Shown: positions 48,675 to 54,600 of the stretch, piece after piece
Numbering within the stretch: position 1 is the first letter of the stretch
How the letters are laid out: each line of letters begins with the position of its first letter
Source: Escherichia coli
GTDB taxonomy: Bacteria; Pseudomonadota; Gammaproteobacteria; Enterobacterales; Enterobacteriaceae
Reading direction: 5' to 3' (one strand)
Length of the DNA stretch: 64,000 nucleotides
NCBI RefSeq assembly: GCF_002854065.1
Contig: NZ_CP024150.1
Program-made: the position numbers

Positions 48675-51600
48675 CAACGGATAATCAGCTCCGTTTATCT
48701 CACCCTCTTTCATCTTTTCGTAAGATTGTATTTGGGTAAGTCCCTTAAAGAAGAACTCCTGCGGGGTCATATTCGGGCGGGCATCTGTTCCCTCCTCGGC
48801 TACCGCCAGCAAGAAATCACTCTGTACTGGCCGCACGATAGCGCGAATGAGATCTGGTAGCGCCTTAACGGGTAGTTTCTCTGCCACAGAAAGCAGGTGA
48901 TTAAAGCGTTTTTTTTCATTGGCTATAGTTGCTTTCTCTTTCTTGTTTCGGTTCCAGAACATCACTGTCCGTAGCACTCCTTATCGTGATCAAGATGATG
49001 GTTTTTAATTCTAATGCTGCGGTAGTTTCACGTCACGCACACATGCATATTCTTCAAAAGCTTCGGCGTCAGCCGGTCAACCAGTTCCGCCTAGTACCAC
49101 AGGATAAACAGGCTCCCCACTAAAATTACTTCTTGATTAGTACCACGTACTAAAATGTTTGATTTTAGTACGTGGTACTAGTATGATTATCAGCATGAAG
49201 CTAAAGGAGCCAGTGGGATGAACTATCTGGAGTTTGTTGAAACCAGCGCTTTCAGTGGTCTGCGTAAAGAGCTCATGGATGATGATGAATTTCGGGAACT
49301 GCAGACCTATTTACTGGAAGCTCATGATCGGGGTGACACTATCAGTCACACAGGTGGATGCAAAAAGATTCGGTGGAGCCGCCCAGGGATGGGGAAGCGA
49401 GGTGGCGTCAGAGTGATTTACTACGTTCGCCTTGCCAGCGGCAGATTATACCTGCTTCTGATATACCCTAAGAATGCTAAAGATGATCTTAGCGAGAAAG
49501 AAAAAGCCGTTATGAAGGTATTAGCACAGCAGCTGAAATAATGGTACCACTCAAATGGTGGCAGGCCTCTCCATAACGAGGAAAAATTTATGGAAAAGAA
49601 ACTTTTTGATGCACTTATTAACAGCATGGAGGAAATGGTTGCCATTGAGAATGGCCAAATCCAGCCAGCTGAAGAAAATATTCACCGCCATACACTGCCG
49701 GATGTGAAGGCTATTCGTAAACATGCCGGAATGAAACAGGCTGAATTTGCAGAAGTGGTGGGAGCCAGCGTTGACCTTATCCGCAGCTGGGAACAGAAAC
49801 GGCGTATCCCGTCGGGTATTGCGTTGAAAATGCTCTGTCTCATCGAACGTGAGCCAGCACTGATTAATACCTTGCGCAGCATTTAATCCTGAATTTCTAA
49901 AGCCCAGTTAGATGGGCTTTAATATTTGTGATTCTGTTAACTTCGATCTGACTGCATCGTCACGTAGGCGCATAATGACACCCGGTAGCCGATACTGTTC
50001 TCAGGGACGGGTTTCTGAACTAACCTAAAATCCAGTCGTAATGATCCTCGTGAGTTACAGGGCTGTCTGATGACATAATACAGACATTCCCATAACCACC
50101 ATCATGCGAAGCTGCATATTTAGACACGGCGATTGCATCATTTTTATTTTTTAATACCGCAATGATTTTTCCACTGTTATGCAATGTACTTACGCAGTAG
50201 ATCCCTTAGTGCAAAATCTGATTTTCTTTTAATTGACTAGCCATGCCGATTACCCTTCTCCGTACAGAATGATTAATTGTGCAAAGGTAGCTGATCAGTT
50301 CGTCAACCCGCCGTGAATACGTATCTTCAATCTGTATTCTGTTTCTGTGTACCGTTACAGACCCTGATTACTGTCATCTTTGATACGCCAGCCAGACGGG
50401 CAGTTTCTCGCAGCGATTTTCCGTTGACCATGCGCAGAGTACGTATCAGTTCATGTTTCTGCGCATCGGCCACCCTGCCCCGGTATTTTCCTTCAGCTTT
50501 CGCTTTACAGATTCCCTCTGCCTGCCGACGTCTACGGTCTTCGTAGTCTTTTCTGGCAATGGCGGCAAGCATATCCAGCATCATGCTATTTACGGCCTTT
50601 AACATGCTTCTGGTGAAGTCATCGCGGACTGCGTTGGTCAGGGCCATATGGCTGGTTGGGAGATCAAGACTGACAACAGATAACCGTTTATCTGTTATCT
50701 CTTTTCTAAGAATCACCCAGCCAGCATCATTCAGACGGGATAGCCGGTCCACCTGTTCAATCAAAATAACGTCCCCAGGCTCCATATCTGCAAGCATCCG
50801 AGTTAATTCCGGACGGTTCAGGGATGCACCTGATGCATTTTCAACATACCAGCCAGCAATTCGATGACCATGAAGCGCTGCAAATTCTTTGAGCCTGTTT
50901 TTTGAACGAAGCGCGTCTTGTTCCATTGTTGAAGCTCGAAGATATGCGTAAATGTACATTTTTTGCACGCCTGGTCTAGTATGAGTGGTCTATTATATAG
51001 TGGTAACTTTTAACTGGTACCATATCCAGGAATTCAAATCAATACTTGTGGTCATTTTTGGGGATACCCGAATGTGACTGACTGACTCGCCCGGGCGGGC
51101 TTGTCCAACCCCTCCCCCGTTCAGAAACAAGTTCTGAACAGACTCACGGTTTCGGAAACAGGTCAACAATATTAAATACGATCACATGAAATATTTCTTG
51201 GACACTTTTTCCGATAGTGCCGAAACGTCCACGATGGATCGTATTTTTTGTATATCCCAGGTTCAGGATTGACGGTGATGGAGCGAAGCACTGATTGAAC
51301 TGGACTGAAAATGCTGTATGTCCAGTCAGCCGGAGAATTATACTAGCGACCATGAGCATCACAGGAAGAACGCGTAACAGATGGCAACTGAGTGGGTAGA
51401 TGTGGCTGATAATGCCGTTAAAATTGGGCTTGGCTCTGCGCTGACAATATTGGGCGGTTATCTAACGCTCAAATTATCTCAGCGGCACGAGTTAAGGAAA
51501 GAAGCATTAATTCGACGACGTAAAGATTTTGAGGTGAAAACTGAGCGTTACGTGAATTTTTTATCCAGTTCAAGAAAGATGTTGCAGAAATATACTATCA

Positions 51601-54600
51601 GCAATTTTAAGCCAGATGGGGATGATTACATGGAGCTTACAAGACAGCATGAAACATTATCCCTTACATGCTCGAATAGTATCATTAGAGAGCTGGCCTT
51701 TGATGCTTACTATGCTGTTTCTCATGCATGCACAATGGGGACTGCAAATCGCGATGAAAAAGCCCCAGCCCGGAAAAAAGCTAAAGAGGCTTTAGATAAG
51801 TTTCAGGGATTTGCCAGCGAAGAACTACGTCGTGAGAAAGCTGCAATTGATGTAATAAGCGATAAGCGGACATTCTGGTCCTTTAGACGGCGAACAGCGC
51901 GATGATGGTGTCCGGAGCGCGGAAAATCTTGTTTAAAATATCTAGCGCGGTAGCAGAAAGAAAACGCATTAGCCATCAACTGTATCTCGTTACTGGCACA
52001 AGAATTAATTCATGTATTACAGCAAGTTAGCAATTATGCGCAGTAGAAGTTATCGTGGAGTTTTTTGATGGAAGAAGTAACCCCCATGGAAATAAAAATG
52101 AGGGGTACGCTATACTCAAGTAACTTGAAGATGCTGGATGATTGAATTCCAACCACTGTATATTTTAGGCCGCATACATGATATTCAAAACAATTTTTTC
52201 AGTAATACTTTTTCTTTCATTTTCTGCCGCAGCACAACCACAAAAGTTGGAGTGTGTCAGCCGAAAGGATGGTACGGTAAAAATAGCGCATATTTTCAGC
52301 AGTCCATCAAATAAGGGGCTGCTGGAGTTTGATAGTGCCATTTTTACGAAGGTGGATTCAAAAATAGAATCAGGAAATTTGAAAACCTTGTTTTCTACTC
52401 AACAAGAAGAGAGGCAAAAAGAAAGTCGCGTGATTTTTTTAACACTAAGAGACAGAGATGCCGAAATATTTGTCACAAGAAAAACTGGTAACAATGGTTA
52501 TGAAGATGGGATGATTTATGAATGTAATCCCTGAACATTTAATCCTTTTAGATATATTTAAATAAAATTTAGTCAAGAAAAGTGAACACATTTATGTTTC
52601 ATAAGGAGTTTGTATGCTGGGTACTTCATTTCAACAGTTTTCGATAGAGGCGCTTCTGGAAAGTGCTTCACTACGCAGTGGACTGACAGCATTGAATAAG
52701 TGTAAATATCATGATAAAGGCAGCTTTTATAATGCTTTTTTCAACTATCAATTGGTCTGGAACGTTTTTTAAAATTATTTATGTTGTTCAGTATATGATT
52801 GAAAATGATTTAAACAAACCAACATATAGTCATTTGAGAAAATTAGGTCATGATATAAGTACTTTACATCAAAATGCAGTAAATATTGCAATCAAATATG
52901 AGAAAAGAGACAAAGGCAAATGGGTCTTAAATGATGAGCAATCTGCAATATTAACAATGCTATCGGAATTCGGGAAAGAAACCAGGTATTATAATTTAAA
53001 TACTATTATTGGAGATAAAAAACTAATGAATGACCCTCTCGAGCAATGGAATTGTATTTTGGAGTATTGCTACTGGAAGTATACTTCAGCAACTAAAAGA
53101 GAGAGATTGAGTCAAGATGTAATCTCATGGGCTGAGAGAAATCGATTGTATGGTTTTACTAATGAATTTGGCCTCGATGGTCATATTATGACGTATGTAG
53201 ATCAGTATCTATTGAACTGGAAAGTAACCAAAATTTCGCCTTGCATTGCATGGGAAATAATTAGCATGTTGCAACCGTATTACTTTTTGCTAATGAGATT
53301 ACGAGATACTGTGCAGTTGAAGGAACAAGATAAAGGCATTAAAGACCCTTTAGTACCATACTTTCATGAGATTTTCCCATATTTCCTTTTAGATCGTGCA
53401 ACAGCGAAAAGACGTAGGAATTGGCTTGATTAGCCGCAATACTATTTCTAGACAGAATGAGTGTATGTCCAAGTCGGGCGAGGAATTAAACGAGAGGCGT
53501 AAAAAAGGCCACTTACGCGGCCTTTGTCTGTTGGTTCTTCGGCCTGGTGACATACCACGATAAACATCCCACAGCTACACTCATCAACATTCCGGATAAG
53601 CGATCATCTGCCTGAGAAAACAGGCAACCGACAAACATCGCAACAGGGAAAGGAAGAAGTAAACAGCGCCCCAAAATGCTCATAAAATCCATAAATCCTC
53701 CTTTGTTAAAGGGCAGGAAGCGGTGCACTTCCTGCCCTTAGTTACGTTTCCGCAGTCATCAATCGATGAACTGGCGAATCAGTTCCAGAACAGCAATCAG
53801 CGCGTTTGCAACGGCGACCACAGCCCTGAGAACGATGATTAACAGGTTAATCATCCGTTTCTCCAGATTGACACTGGAGGAAGTCACCGTTGCTTGCTCA
53901 TACATCGCCTGTCACAACGGCTCTCTCACAATGTTGGATGTAGAGTACCTTCCCCCTGCCAGAGCACTGAACACAGCACCACCTGTTTGTTCAGCCAGGA
54001 CTTTAATTCGTTCATACCCAGATAGCGCAGGGTTTAGAAGCAAGGGAGGCAACACTGTACAGCGCCAACACAAAGATTATACCGATGCACGCATAAAATT
54101 CATTTAAAGAAATGACCATTGACAGACAATCTGAAGTCAAACTAGACAACCGGTGTCTAGTGCCATAATATTATGGATGTTGGATGTAGAGTATCTTCCT
54201 CCAGTCAGAGCCACCAACTCAAAGCTGGAAAACACGAAAAAGCCCGATTACCAGTCGGGTTTTTTTGTGCCTGGCGTTCGGCTGTTCTTCCGTTTTTCCC
54301 CTTCATTTTAGGGTTTTTCTTTCTGTTTTTTTGTTGCGTCCAATGCCGCTGGTCGCGTTGACCAATAGCTCAATGTCGTTACCGGCATTTTCATAAATCC
54401 AATTTTTTCGGTAAGTTGAATCACACAAGATGATTAAAAAGCTGTCGGTTTTTTTGATGGATACAGTAGCGGCGGTGCGCTGCGTGAAATCTGATATTTT
54501 TCAGGAAGGACTGAGCGCGAGAATTGGCGAGGGGGCATCAAAATATTTTTTGGGCATGAATGGAAATTCCCCCTGTTCTGGGCATTAAATAAATCCCACT

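What the first reader, a model, noticed from the sequence alone, without database searches (positions are those of the whole stretch)
51381..53692. AT-rich block of four uncharacterised genes between the recombinase and the second DinQ-like locus
Four ORFs (TM protein, secreted protein, 240-aa cytoplasmic protein, 59-aa membrane protein with a perfect AAAGGAGG RBS) have markedly lower GC than the backbone and no family I can recognise. The 240-aa gene is preceded by an overlapping 52-codon ORF in another frame, which could be a frameshift or a real leader ORF. This is where a novel defence or addiction system would most plausibly hide.
Basis: inference. Interest (0 to 1): 0.55.

Follow-up and report, generated by a model that had tools for sequence, protein, structure and literature searches.

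The report
Broken HEPN abortive-infection gene on plasmid
The four genes are not one system: the largest is a frameshift-broken copy of a widespread, uncatalogued HEPN-fold gene that probably defends bacteria against phages, and the other three are unrelated plasmid genes of unknown function.

Summary
The ORFs exist as described, but only ORF2 and ORF3 are clearly AT-rich (36% and 34% GC; window 50%). Window 51300-54525 is a 3.2-kb IncX-plasmid module set in a larger E. coli plasmid.

The "52-codon ORF + 240-aa gene" is one 273-aa gene broken by two 1-nt deletions in T7 tracts (now T6 at 52736-52741 and 52765-52770). They destroy its most conserved motif, FFQLSIGLERxxK. Related IncX plasmids carry it intact.

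That gene belongs to a large family (about 1,500 clusters at 50% identity) with no match in Pfam, NCBIfam, PADLOC or PHROGs. Its high-confidence model has a HEPN fold, and the invariant residues fit the AbiV/AF0298-type variant active site. Homologues stand alone, with no conserved partner. They lie in the P2-phage gpA-portal defence hotspot (twice), beside Gabija in Tn7-like cargo, and beside a dGTPase. IncX1 plasmids hold an OLD/GajA-like ATPase in the same slot.

Best reading: a single-gene HEPN abortive-infection RNase, inactivated here.

ORF1 (membrane-anchored four-helix bundle) and ORF2 (secreted) occur independently of it. ORF4 (59 aa, two TM helices) travels with the known dqlB/agrB addiction module. 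The four-gene-system idea is refuted, and no function was tested.

The parts
51300..54525 (.). IncX-type plasmid module (ORF1 through agrB) embedded in a larger mosaic plasmid
   Evidence: 98.5% identical over 3,229 nt to IncX-type plasmid OX460334 2289-5517; flanks match other plasmids. 100% identical to NZ_AP027791.
51381..51905 (+). ORF1, 174 aa: N-terminal TM helix plus a four-helix bundle predicted to be cytoplasmic; widespread plasmid gene of unknown function, not linked to ORF3
52178..52534 (+). ORF2, 118 aa: signal peptide, two Cys; rare optional gene of unknown function
   Evidence: 51 PLSDB records, 17 full length; only codons 65-118 remain in 33.6-kb IncX plasmids. No family match.
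52614..53433 (+).
52736..52741 (+). First frameshift: T6 tract, T7 in intact alleles
   Evidence: The same contraction appears in an unrelated allele, CP023137.2.
52765..52770 (+). Second frameshift: T6 tract, T7 in intact alleles. Together the two replace QLSIGLER (including invariant E50 and R51) with out-of-frame residues
53513..53692 (-). ORF4, 59 aa, two TM helices: conserved small membrane protein that belongs with dqlB, not with ORF1-3
   Evidence: 711 PLSDB records, 707 of them covering at least 80% of the 59 aa, at 54-100% identity. Directly downstream of dqlB in each context examined. Alleles differ by 15 non-synonymous and 6 synonymous codons with no indel.
53497..53530 (-). Hairpin plus T-run terminator ending ORF4; also closes convergent ORF3
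   Evidence: The ORF4 stop codon lies in the loop.
53759..53854 (-). dqlB, DinQ-like type I toxin (context, outside the finding)
   Evidence: RefSeq annotation WP_000609149.1. Validated as an addiction module with agrB in pOXA-48 (PMC12365149).
54180..54267 (+). AgrB antisense RNA, antitoxin of dqlB (context)
   Evidence: Rfam RF02891, 61.5 bits against a gathering score of 40, E 4.4e-9. Promoter-like site at 54143-54171.

Best explanation
The block is a piece of IncX plasmid backbone carrying four independent genes, not one system.

The informative gene is ORF3 (52614-53433). In intact form it encodes a 273-aa stand-alone protein with a HEPN-fold N-terminal domain and a helical C-terminal extension. 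I infer that it is a single-gene abortive-infection or phage-exclusion effector: a metal-independent RNase that is held inactive and cleaves cellular or phage RNA on infection.

The putative active site follows the AbiV/AF0298-type HEPN variant:
- an acidic residue in helix 2 (E50, with R51 and K54);
- an 'alternative' histidine from the insert between helices 2 and 3 (H80);
- the motif arginine at the end of helix 3 (R125), with no histidine 4-6 residues later.

In this window the gene is dead. Two 1-nt contractions of T7 tracts put codons 44-51 out of frame, remove E50 and R51, and separate helix 1 from the rest.

In IncX plasmids the interval between ORF1 and ORF4-dqlB acts as an exchangeable cargo slot. 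It holds either this HEPN gene or an OLD/GajA-like ATPase.

Shown: gene structure, both frameshifts, family size, fold, conserved residues, genomic contexts. Inferred: RNase activity, anti-phage role, how it is triggered.

The confidence of 0.6 is for the statement as a whole. That ORF3 is a broken copy of a HEPN-fold Abi-like gene and that the four genes are not one system: about 0.8. That the intact family is an anti-phage RNase: about 0.5.
For: Frameshifts:
- Alignment to the intact allele; repair gives 273 aa.
- 46 of the 49 PLSDB alleles carry T7 at both tracts.

Family:
- 49 close homologues of 270-282 aa.
- 1,533 representative clusters, 565 at E<=1e-30, nearly all single-domain and about 270 aa.
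- Invariant E12, E50, R51, K54, H80 and R125 across 138 members with 21-51% identity to the IncX protein.

Fold:
- AF2 pLDDT 93.4, pTM 0.90.
- AFDB50 full-length matches (TM 0.7-0.9) are named 'AbiV family abortive infection protein' and 'HEPN AbiU2-like domain-containing protein'.

Motif logic:
- Anantharaman et al. 2013 (PMC3710099) describe exactly this variant: the H is lost from Rx4-6H, an alternative H comes from the helix-2/helix-3 insert, and there is an acid in helix 2.
- Lactococcal AbiV is an EDTA-insensitive rRNA-cleaving HEPN RNase (bioRxiv 10.1101/2024.05.05.592566).

Context:
- Homologues lie between gpA and the portal gene in two P2-like phages. That interval is the defined P2 defence hotspot (PMC9122126).
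- In Tn7-like cargo, 3 kb from GajA/GajB.
- Next to a PADLOC dGTPase on Klebsiella plasmids.
- Between two PIN toxin-antitoxin pairs.
- Near SRA-HNH and CHAT-TPR genes.
- IncX1 plasmids carry an OLD/GajA-like ATPase (PADLOC Old 4.7e-19) in the same slot, followed by a 44-codon 3' remnant of ORF3.

Stand-alone status:
- No shared neighbour in the all-against-all BLAST of the first loci.
- No conserved flanking DNA across 12 loci.
Against: - No experiment supports any function for this family.
- No member matches any HEPN, AbiV or AbiU model in Pfam, PADLOC or NCBIfam. A profile search of PDB sequences finds nothing.
- The canonical Rx4-6H motif is absent.
- I could not inspect model coordinates, so I could not check that E50, H80 and R125 cluster in space.
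- Some homologues sit among housekeeping genes.
- About 15 contexts is a sample, not an enrichment test.
- Stand-alone HEPN toxins normally need an inhibitor, and none was found.
- The deletions lie in homopolymers, where long-read assemblies err.
Confidence: 0.6

Rival explanations
1. The four genes form one novel multi-gene defence or addiction system, for example a membrane sensor (ORF1), a periplasmic partner (ORF2), a cytoplasmic effector (ORF3) and a small membrane protein (ORF4).
For: The genes are adjacent. ORF1-3 share a strand, and the same order is kept in several IncX plasmids. Several ORF3 homologues elsewhere have an unrelated TM protein immediately upstream.
Against: The linkage is only by descent within near-identical IncX backbones. 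ORF2 is a remnant in plasmids that keep ORF3 intact. ORF1 occurs in 645 plasmids against 135 with full-length ORF3, including IncF plasmids and IncX1 plasmids where ORF3 is replaced. No relative of ORF1, ORF2 or ORF4 is encoded near the ORF3 homologues compared. ORF4 tracks dqlB.
Confidence: 0.05
2. ORF3 is the toxin of a plasmid-addiction (post-segregational killing) module. Its antitoxin is unrecognised, for example a small RNA as in lactococcal AbiV (type III TA).
Against: Divergent loci share no upstream or downstream sequence beyond a Shine-Dalgarno. Rfam finds no RNA match next to ORF3. No partner ORF is conserved. Many homologues are chromosomal or phage-borne, where addiction has little meaning.
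Confidence: 0.15
3. ORF3 is a non-catalytic helical protein, a regulator or nucleotide- or protein-binding adaptor of the MtlR/Rsd or HEPN-like kind, with no role in defence.
Against: Six charged or polar residues (E12, E50, R51, K54, H80, R125) are invariant down to about 21% identity. That is typical of an active site. The gene recurs in the P2 hotspot and next to known defence systems.
Confidence: 0.15
4. The two frameshifts are assembly artefacts, or a reversible phase-variation switch, and the gene is functional, at least part of the time, in the source strain.
For: Both lesions are single-base contractions of T7 homopolymers, the classic long-read error and the classic slipped-strand site. 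An unrelated allele shows the first contraction alone.
Against: Six RefSeq plasmid assemblies (human isolates from Viet Nam, pig isolates, one of unrecorded source) carry both deletions: five identical over 2.6 kb, and NZ_AP027831 with both deletions in the 101-nt test. Two independent -1 events do not restore the frame. T7 is short for efficient phase variation. Two lesions fit neutral decay after the first.
Confidence: 0.12

Closest known systems
[quoted passage not shown]
   Same: HEPN fold. Stand-alone small protein on mobile elements. The active-site variant described for this group fits: the motif Arg is kept, the motif His is missing, an alternative conserved His comes from the helix-2/helix-3 insert, and there is an acid in helix 2 (PMC3710099). 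This maps to R125, H80 and E50. Some structural relatives in AFDB are named 'AbiV family'.
   Different: No HMM match to the Pfam or PADLOC AbiV models for ORF3 or for 138 relatives. It is 273 aa against 201 aa, with an extra C-terminal helical part and a beta-hairpin. No conserved upstream abiV2-like element. The 2024 preprint reports a canonical R91-x5-H97 in lactococcal AbiV, which this family lacks.
AbiU2-like HEPN proteins (Pfam HEPN_AbiU2)
   Same: Full-length Foldseek matches of similar size (267-285 aa), TM 0.72-0.92, carry this name in UniProt. Both belong to the HEPN Abi class.
   Different: No family member reaches E<=0.1 against any Pfam HEPN model. AbiU2 is listed as having the canonical Rx4-6H; this family does not.
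HEPN toxins of HEPN-MNT toxin-antitoxin systems (e.g. PDB 7ae2, 5yep)
   Different: No MNT nucleotidyltransferase or any other conserved neighbour. About twice the size. No Rx4-6H.
P2 old / tin and other cargo of the P2 gpA-gpQ hotspot (Rousset et al. 2022)
   Same: Same genomic position in two P2-like phages. An OLD/GajA-like ATPase occupies the equivalent IncX slot.
   Different: No sequence or fold relation to Old or Tin. Not among the PADLOC v2 models, which as far as I know include the systems validated in that study.
dqlB/agrB type I toxin-antitoxin module
   Same: Immediately adjacent. ORF4 lies directly downstream of dqlB in every context examined. AgrB RNA was detected.
   Different: ORF1-3 are not part of it. 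ORF4 is not part of the described two-component module (PMC12365149), and its role is unknown.

Membership tests
HEPN superfamily | Four-helix up-and-down HEPN core fold | tested here: met
HEPN superfamily | Rx4-6H catalytic motif at the end of helix 3 | tested here: not met
   R125 is invariant, but positions +4 to +6 are L, N, T (consensus RYYNLN). There is no His there. Instead an invariant H80 lies in the helix-2/3 insert, the variant described for AbiV/AF0298.
HEPN superfamily | Conserved acidic or polar residue in helix 2 facing the motif | tested here: inconclusive
   E50 is invariant and lies in predicted helix 35-64.
HEPN superfamily | Metal-independent RNase activity | not testable with these tools
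   Needs purified protein and RNA cleavage assays with and without EDTA.
AbiV family (Pfam HEPN_AbiV / PADLOC AbiV) | Significant match to the family HMM | tested here: not met
   No Pfam, PADLOC or NCBIfam hit for ORF3, for 35 close relatives or for 138 diverse relatives.
AbiV family (Pfam HEPN_AbiV / PADLOC AbiV) | Upstream non-coding abiV2 RNA antitoxin (type III TA) | tested here: inconclusive
   No conserved sequence in the 250 nt upstream across 12 loci. A structure-only or lineage-specific RNA cannot be excluded.
AbiV family (Pfam HEPN_AbiV / PADLOC AbiV) | Phage resistance by abortive infection | not testable with these tools
   Only guilt by association: P2 hotspot, Gabija, dGTPase and OLD-slot contexts.
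AbiU2-like HEPN (Pfam HEPN_AbiU2) | Significant match to the family HMM | tested here: not met
   No member reaches E<=0.1. The only link is Foldseek matches to AFDB entries with that name.
   PLSDB counts are 645, 51, 313 (135 full-length) and 711 for ORF1-4. No ORF1, ORF2 or ORF4 relatives next to the ORF3 homologues compared.
dqlB/agrB type I TA (for ORF4) | Being the toxin peptide or the antisense RNA of the module | tested here: not met
   dqlB is the 31-codon ORF at 53759-53854 and AgrB is at 54180-54267. ORF4 is a separate downstream ORF. It co-occurs with the module, but no role is described for it.

The most novel reading that the evidence does not exclude
The 273-aa protein defines a large, phylogenetically broad and so far uncatalogued family of stand-alone AbiV-type HEPN effectors. 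It would be a genuine single-gene anti-phage (or anti-plasmid) system using a non-canonical E/H/R active site. IncX plasmids would then possess a dedicated defence-cargo slot, between ORF1 and ORF4-dqlB, that swaps this gene for an OLD/GajA-like nuclease, as the P2 gpA-gpQ hotspot does. Recurrent T7-tract frameshifts would reflect selection against its cost.
Probability: 0.45. Interest if true: 0.5.

Novelty: new member of a known kind. Interest (0 to 1): 0.35.

Why it matters
If the intact gene protects against phage, it adds a widespread single-gene HEPN defence family that current annotation tools miss: Pfam, NCBIfam, PADLOC v2 and PHROGs all failed on it. It would also mark a defence-gene exchange slot on IncX plasmids, which are major carriers of mcr-1 and other resistance genes (the resistance link is from my own knowledge, not tested here).

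For this window the practical message is more modest. The block is ordinary mosaic plasmid backbone, its one interesting gene is a pseudogene, and the nearby addiction function is the known dqlB/agrB module.

Tried and rejected
- Family libraries. NCBIfam, PADLOC, PHROGs and Pfam gave nothing significant for any of the four proteins, or for 35 and then 138 relatives of ORF3. I disregard the weak PADLOC hit of ORF2 to PDC-M47B (E 0.008) and the PHROG hits (E>0.07).
- PDB sequence searches with profiles A2 and A3 gave no meaningful hit.
- A second homologue search with the broad profile A3, meant to reach members carrying precomputed Pfam HEPN domains, found none.
- Conserved-partner search. All-against-all BLAST of neighbours, and tblastn of ORF1, ORF2 and ORF4 against the loci, found nothing shared.
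- RNA-antitoxin search. Alignment of 250 nt upstream and 200 nt downstream across 12 loci showed only the Shine-Dalgarno in common. Rfam found only AgrB.
- Viral-contig scan. Only one confirmed locus, though it was informative.
- Promoter and terminator scan. Counts were no higher than in shuffled sequence, so it was used only descriptively.
- Programmed frameshifting. Rejected because two separate shifts would be needed and intact alleles exist.

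
Full report
**1. What is in the sequence**

- ORF1, 51381-51905(+), 174 aa
- ORF2, 52178-52534(+), 118 aa
- a 52-codon ORF, 52614-52772(+), overlapping a 240-aa ORF, 52711-53433(+), in another frame
- a 59-aa ORF, 53513-53692(-), preceded by AAAGGAGG

GC content:

| Segment | GC |
|---|---|
| Window | 50.2% |
| ORF1 | 43.0% |
| ORF2 | 36.1% |
| ORF2-ORF3 spacer | 21.5% |
| ORF3 | 33.9% |
| ORF4 | 47.2% |
| Whole block | 38.1% |

The whole block is at about the 10th percentile of equal-sized blocks in the window. So "AT-rich" holds for ORF2 and ORF3, weakly for ORF1, and not for ORF4.

**2. Origin of the segment**

- The 2.6 kb around the block is 100% identical to five E. 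coli plasmid records of 92-168 kb, for example NZ_AP027791. It is 97-99% identical to plasmids of about 33-45 kb; OX460334 and pGF50-D are representatives and have IncX-type backbones.
- Window 51300-54525 matches OX460334 at 98.5% over 3,229 nt. The flanks match other plasmid types, for example 54551-56373 matches the IncF plasmid pPSUO2.
- The block is therefore an IncX backbone module inside a mosaic plasmid.
- RefSeq annotates three "hypothetical proteins" and then dqlB at 53759-53854(-). Rfam finds its antitoxin RNA AgrB at 54180-54267(+), 61.5 bits.
- dqlB/agrB is an experimentally validated addiction module and is present in 53% of IncX plasmids (PMC12365149).

**3. The frame junction**

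- In OX460334 and pGF50-D the third gene is one ORF of 273 codons.
- Alignment shows the window lacks one T in each of two T7 tracts, now T6 at 52736-52741 and 52765-52770.
- Adding both T's back restores a 273-aa ORF that differs from the OX460334 protein at three residues.
- The out-of-frame stretch replaces QLSIGLER within FFQLSIGLERFFK, the most conserved motif of the family. The 240-aa product would also lack helix 1. The window copy is therefore a pseudogene.
- In PLSDB, 46 of 49 plasmids with this allele group have T7 at both tracts, 2 (the window lineage) have T6 at both, and 1 unrelated allele (CP023137.2) has T6 at the first tract only.
- Six RefSeq assemblies carry the double deletion (five identical over 2.6 kb, plus NZ_AP027831). 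It looks real, but homopolymer error needs a read-level check.

**4. What ORF3 is**

No family model matches. ORF3 has no significant match in Pfam, NCBIfam, PADLOC or PHROGs. The same is true of 35 close relatives and 138 diverse relatives.

It is nevertheless a real and large family:
- 49 homologues of about 270-282 aa in the word-indexed search, reaching Deltaproteobacteria.
- 1,533 representative clusters at E<=1e-3 in the exhaustive search, 565 of them at E<=1e-30. Almost all are single-domain proteins of about 270 aa.
- Across 138 members with 21-51% identity to the IncX protein, E12, E50, R51, K54, H80 and R125 are invariant. G23, F43, G48, L117, F120, Y126, N128, P142, W146, P249 and W271 are nearly so.

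The fold is HEPN:
- An AlphaFold2 model built on the alignment is confident (pLDDT 93.4, pTM 0.90) and almost entirely helical.
- Foldseek against AFDB50 gives full-length matches (TM 0.7-0.95). Those that carry names are called "AbiV family abortive infection protein", "HEPN AbiU2-like domain-containing protein" or "HEPN domain-containing protein".

The motif pattern fits a described variant:
- The canonical Rx4-6H is absent. R125 is followed by YYNLN.
- The HEPN survey of Anantharaman et al. describes this situation for AbiV and AF0298-like proteins. The motif Arg at the end of helix 3 is kept, the His is lost, and a second strongly conserved His comes from the insert between helices 2 and 3. 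An acidic residue in helix 2 faces the site (PMC3710099).
- Mapped on the model's helices, these would be R125, H80 and E50. I could not verify this in three dimensions.
- Lactococcal AbiV has since been reported as an EDTA-insensitive, rRNA-cleaving HEPN RNase that is controlled by an upstream RNA.

**5. Genomic context of the family**

The gene stands alone. Neighbours differ from locus to locus and share no similarity. Flanking DNA is not conserved beyond a Shine-Dalgarno.

| Context |
|---|
| Erwinia billingiae: P2-like prophage, between portal and gpA |
| IMG/VR P2-like contig: same gpA-portal interval (76% identical homologue) |
| Tn7-like cargo, 3 kb from GajA/GajB (PADLOC 3.9e-227 and 5.1e-184) |
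| Klebsiella plasmids: next to a PADLOC dGTPase (1.6e-106) |
| Moorella: between two PIN toxin-antitoxin pairs |
| Metagenome contig: near SRA-HNH and CHAT-TPR genes |
| Yersinia, Pectobacterium, Enterobacter, Pantoea: variable islands with zeta toxin, PIN, HNH, GIY-YIG or recombinases |
| Housekeeping surroundings |

The gpA-portal interval is the P2 hotspot of anti-phage systems defined by Rousset et al. (PMC9122126).

In IncX1 plasmids the same slot holds a 633-aa OLD/GajA-like ATPase (PADLOC Old 4.7e-19). The slot lies after ORF1 and before ORF4-dqlB. The ATPase gene is followed by a 44-codon 3' remnant of ORF3.

This is association, not proof. It is the pattern expected of a defence gene, and of a cargo-exchange slot.

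**6. The other three genes**

ORF1:
- Found in 645 PLSDB plasmids (IncX, IncF and others) and in some chromosomes, often without ORF3.
- Its first 35 residues are almost invariant.
- Function is unknown. The "peptidase M14" label on some homologues is unsupported.

ORF2:
- It has a signal peptide and two cysteines.
- It occurs in only 51 plasmids and is truncated in IncX plasmids that keep ORF3 intact.

ORF4:
- A genuine conserved gene. 707 of 711 PLSDB matches cover at least 80% of the 59 aa, at 54-100% identity. It lies directly downstream of dqlB in each context examined.
- Two alleles differ by 21 codons (15 non-synonymous, largely conservative) with no indel.
- It ends in a hairpin plus T-run terminator.
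- It belongs with dqlB rather than with ORF1-3, and its role is unknown.

**7. Verdict**

- One gene is a credible defence candidate of the HEPN Abi kind, from a family that annotation libraries do not cover. In this window it is inactivated.
- Confidence that ORF3 is a broken copy of a HEPN-fold Abi-like gene: about 0.8.
- Confidence that the intact family is an anti-phage RNase: about 0.5.

Noticed in passing
window 53513-53692 (-), with dqlB 53759-53854 (-) and the hairpin at 53709-53739: The 59-aa two-TM ORF lies directly downstream of dqlB in every context examined, and it occurs in 711 plasmids. Its first 25 codons are identical at the DNA level between alleles that are otherwise 75% identical. 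Its C-terminal half has diverged without indels. A GC-rich hairpin with only a short T-run separates it from dqlB, so the two may be co-transcribed. PGAP annotates it in some records (WP_000347020/21) but not in the window-type plasmids.
   Followed up: partly
window 54651-56153 (-): An AT-rich (32% GC) 500-aa ORF that looks internally duplicated by eye, with no hit in NCBIfam, PADLOC or PHROGs. It is 98.6% identical to a gene on the IncF plasmid pPSUO2, where it lies about 1.2 kb from an ORF1 homologue.
   Followed up: partly
window 46688-48478 (-), 48579-48977 (-), 49218-49886 (+): A NERD+UvrD helicase matches the PADLOC candidate C3a187 (E 1.7e-141). Next to it are a DUF6710 gene and a RelE/ParE-NadS toxin-antitoxin pair. 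The block's left neighbourhood is therefore a defence/addiction cluster.
   Followed up: partly
L014 5616-7517 and L015 3585-5486 (IncX1 plasmids): A 633-aa OLD/GajA-like ATPase occupies the position of ORF2 and ORF3 in IncX1 plasmids and is followed by a 44-codon remnant of ORF3. This points to a cargo-exchange slot bounded by the ORF1 5' end and ORF4.
   Followed up: partly
L023 (CP023137.2) about 1237; window 52736-52741: The first T7 tract of ORF3 is also T6 in an unrelated allele on a Klebsiella IncX1 fragment. This is either recurrent slippage or a recurrent homopolymer sequencing error.
   Followed up: partly
window 51299-51509: The 80 nt upstream of ORF1 and its first ~125 nt are conserved at 79-85% nucleotide identity in otherwise unrelated plasmids (IncX1, IncF). 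This stretch also marks the left edge of the IncX module, so it may be a recombination junction or a regulatory site.
   Followed up: no
L002 2370-2894 (OX460334): In the plasmid that has ORF3 intact, ORF1 is split into 63-aa and 109-aa ORFs by an internal stop. So the two genes are not kept intact together.
   Followed up: no
L005 7076-8056 (Yersinia enterocolitica): The gene just downstream of the Yersinia ORF3 homologue (326 aa, DUF6896) contains RKFRNNVFH, a canonical RNxxxH HEPN-like motif.
   Followed up: no
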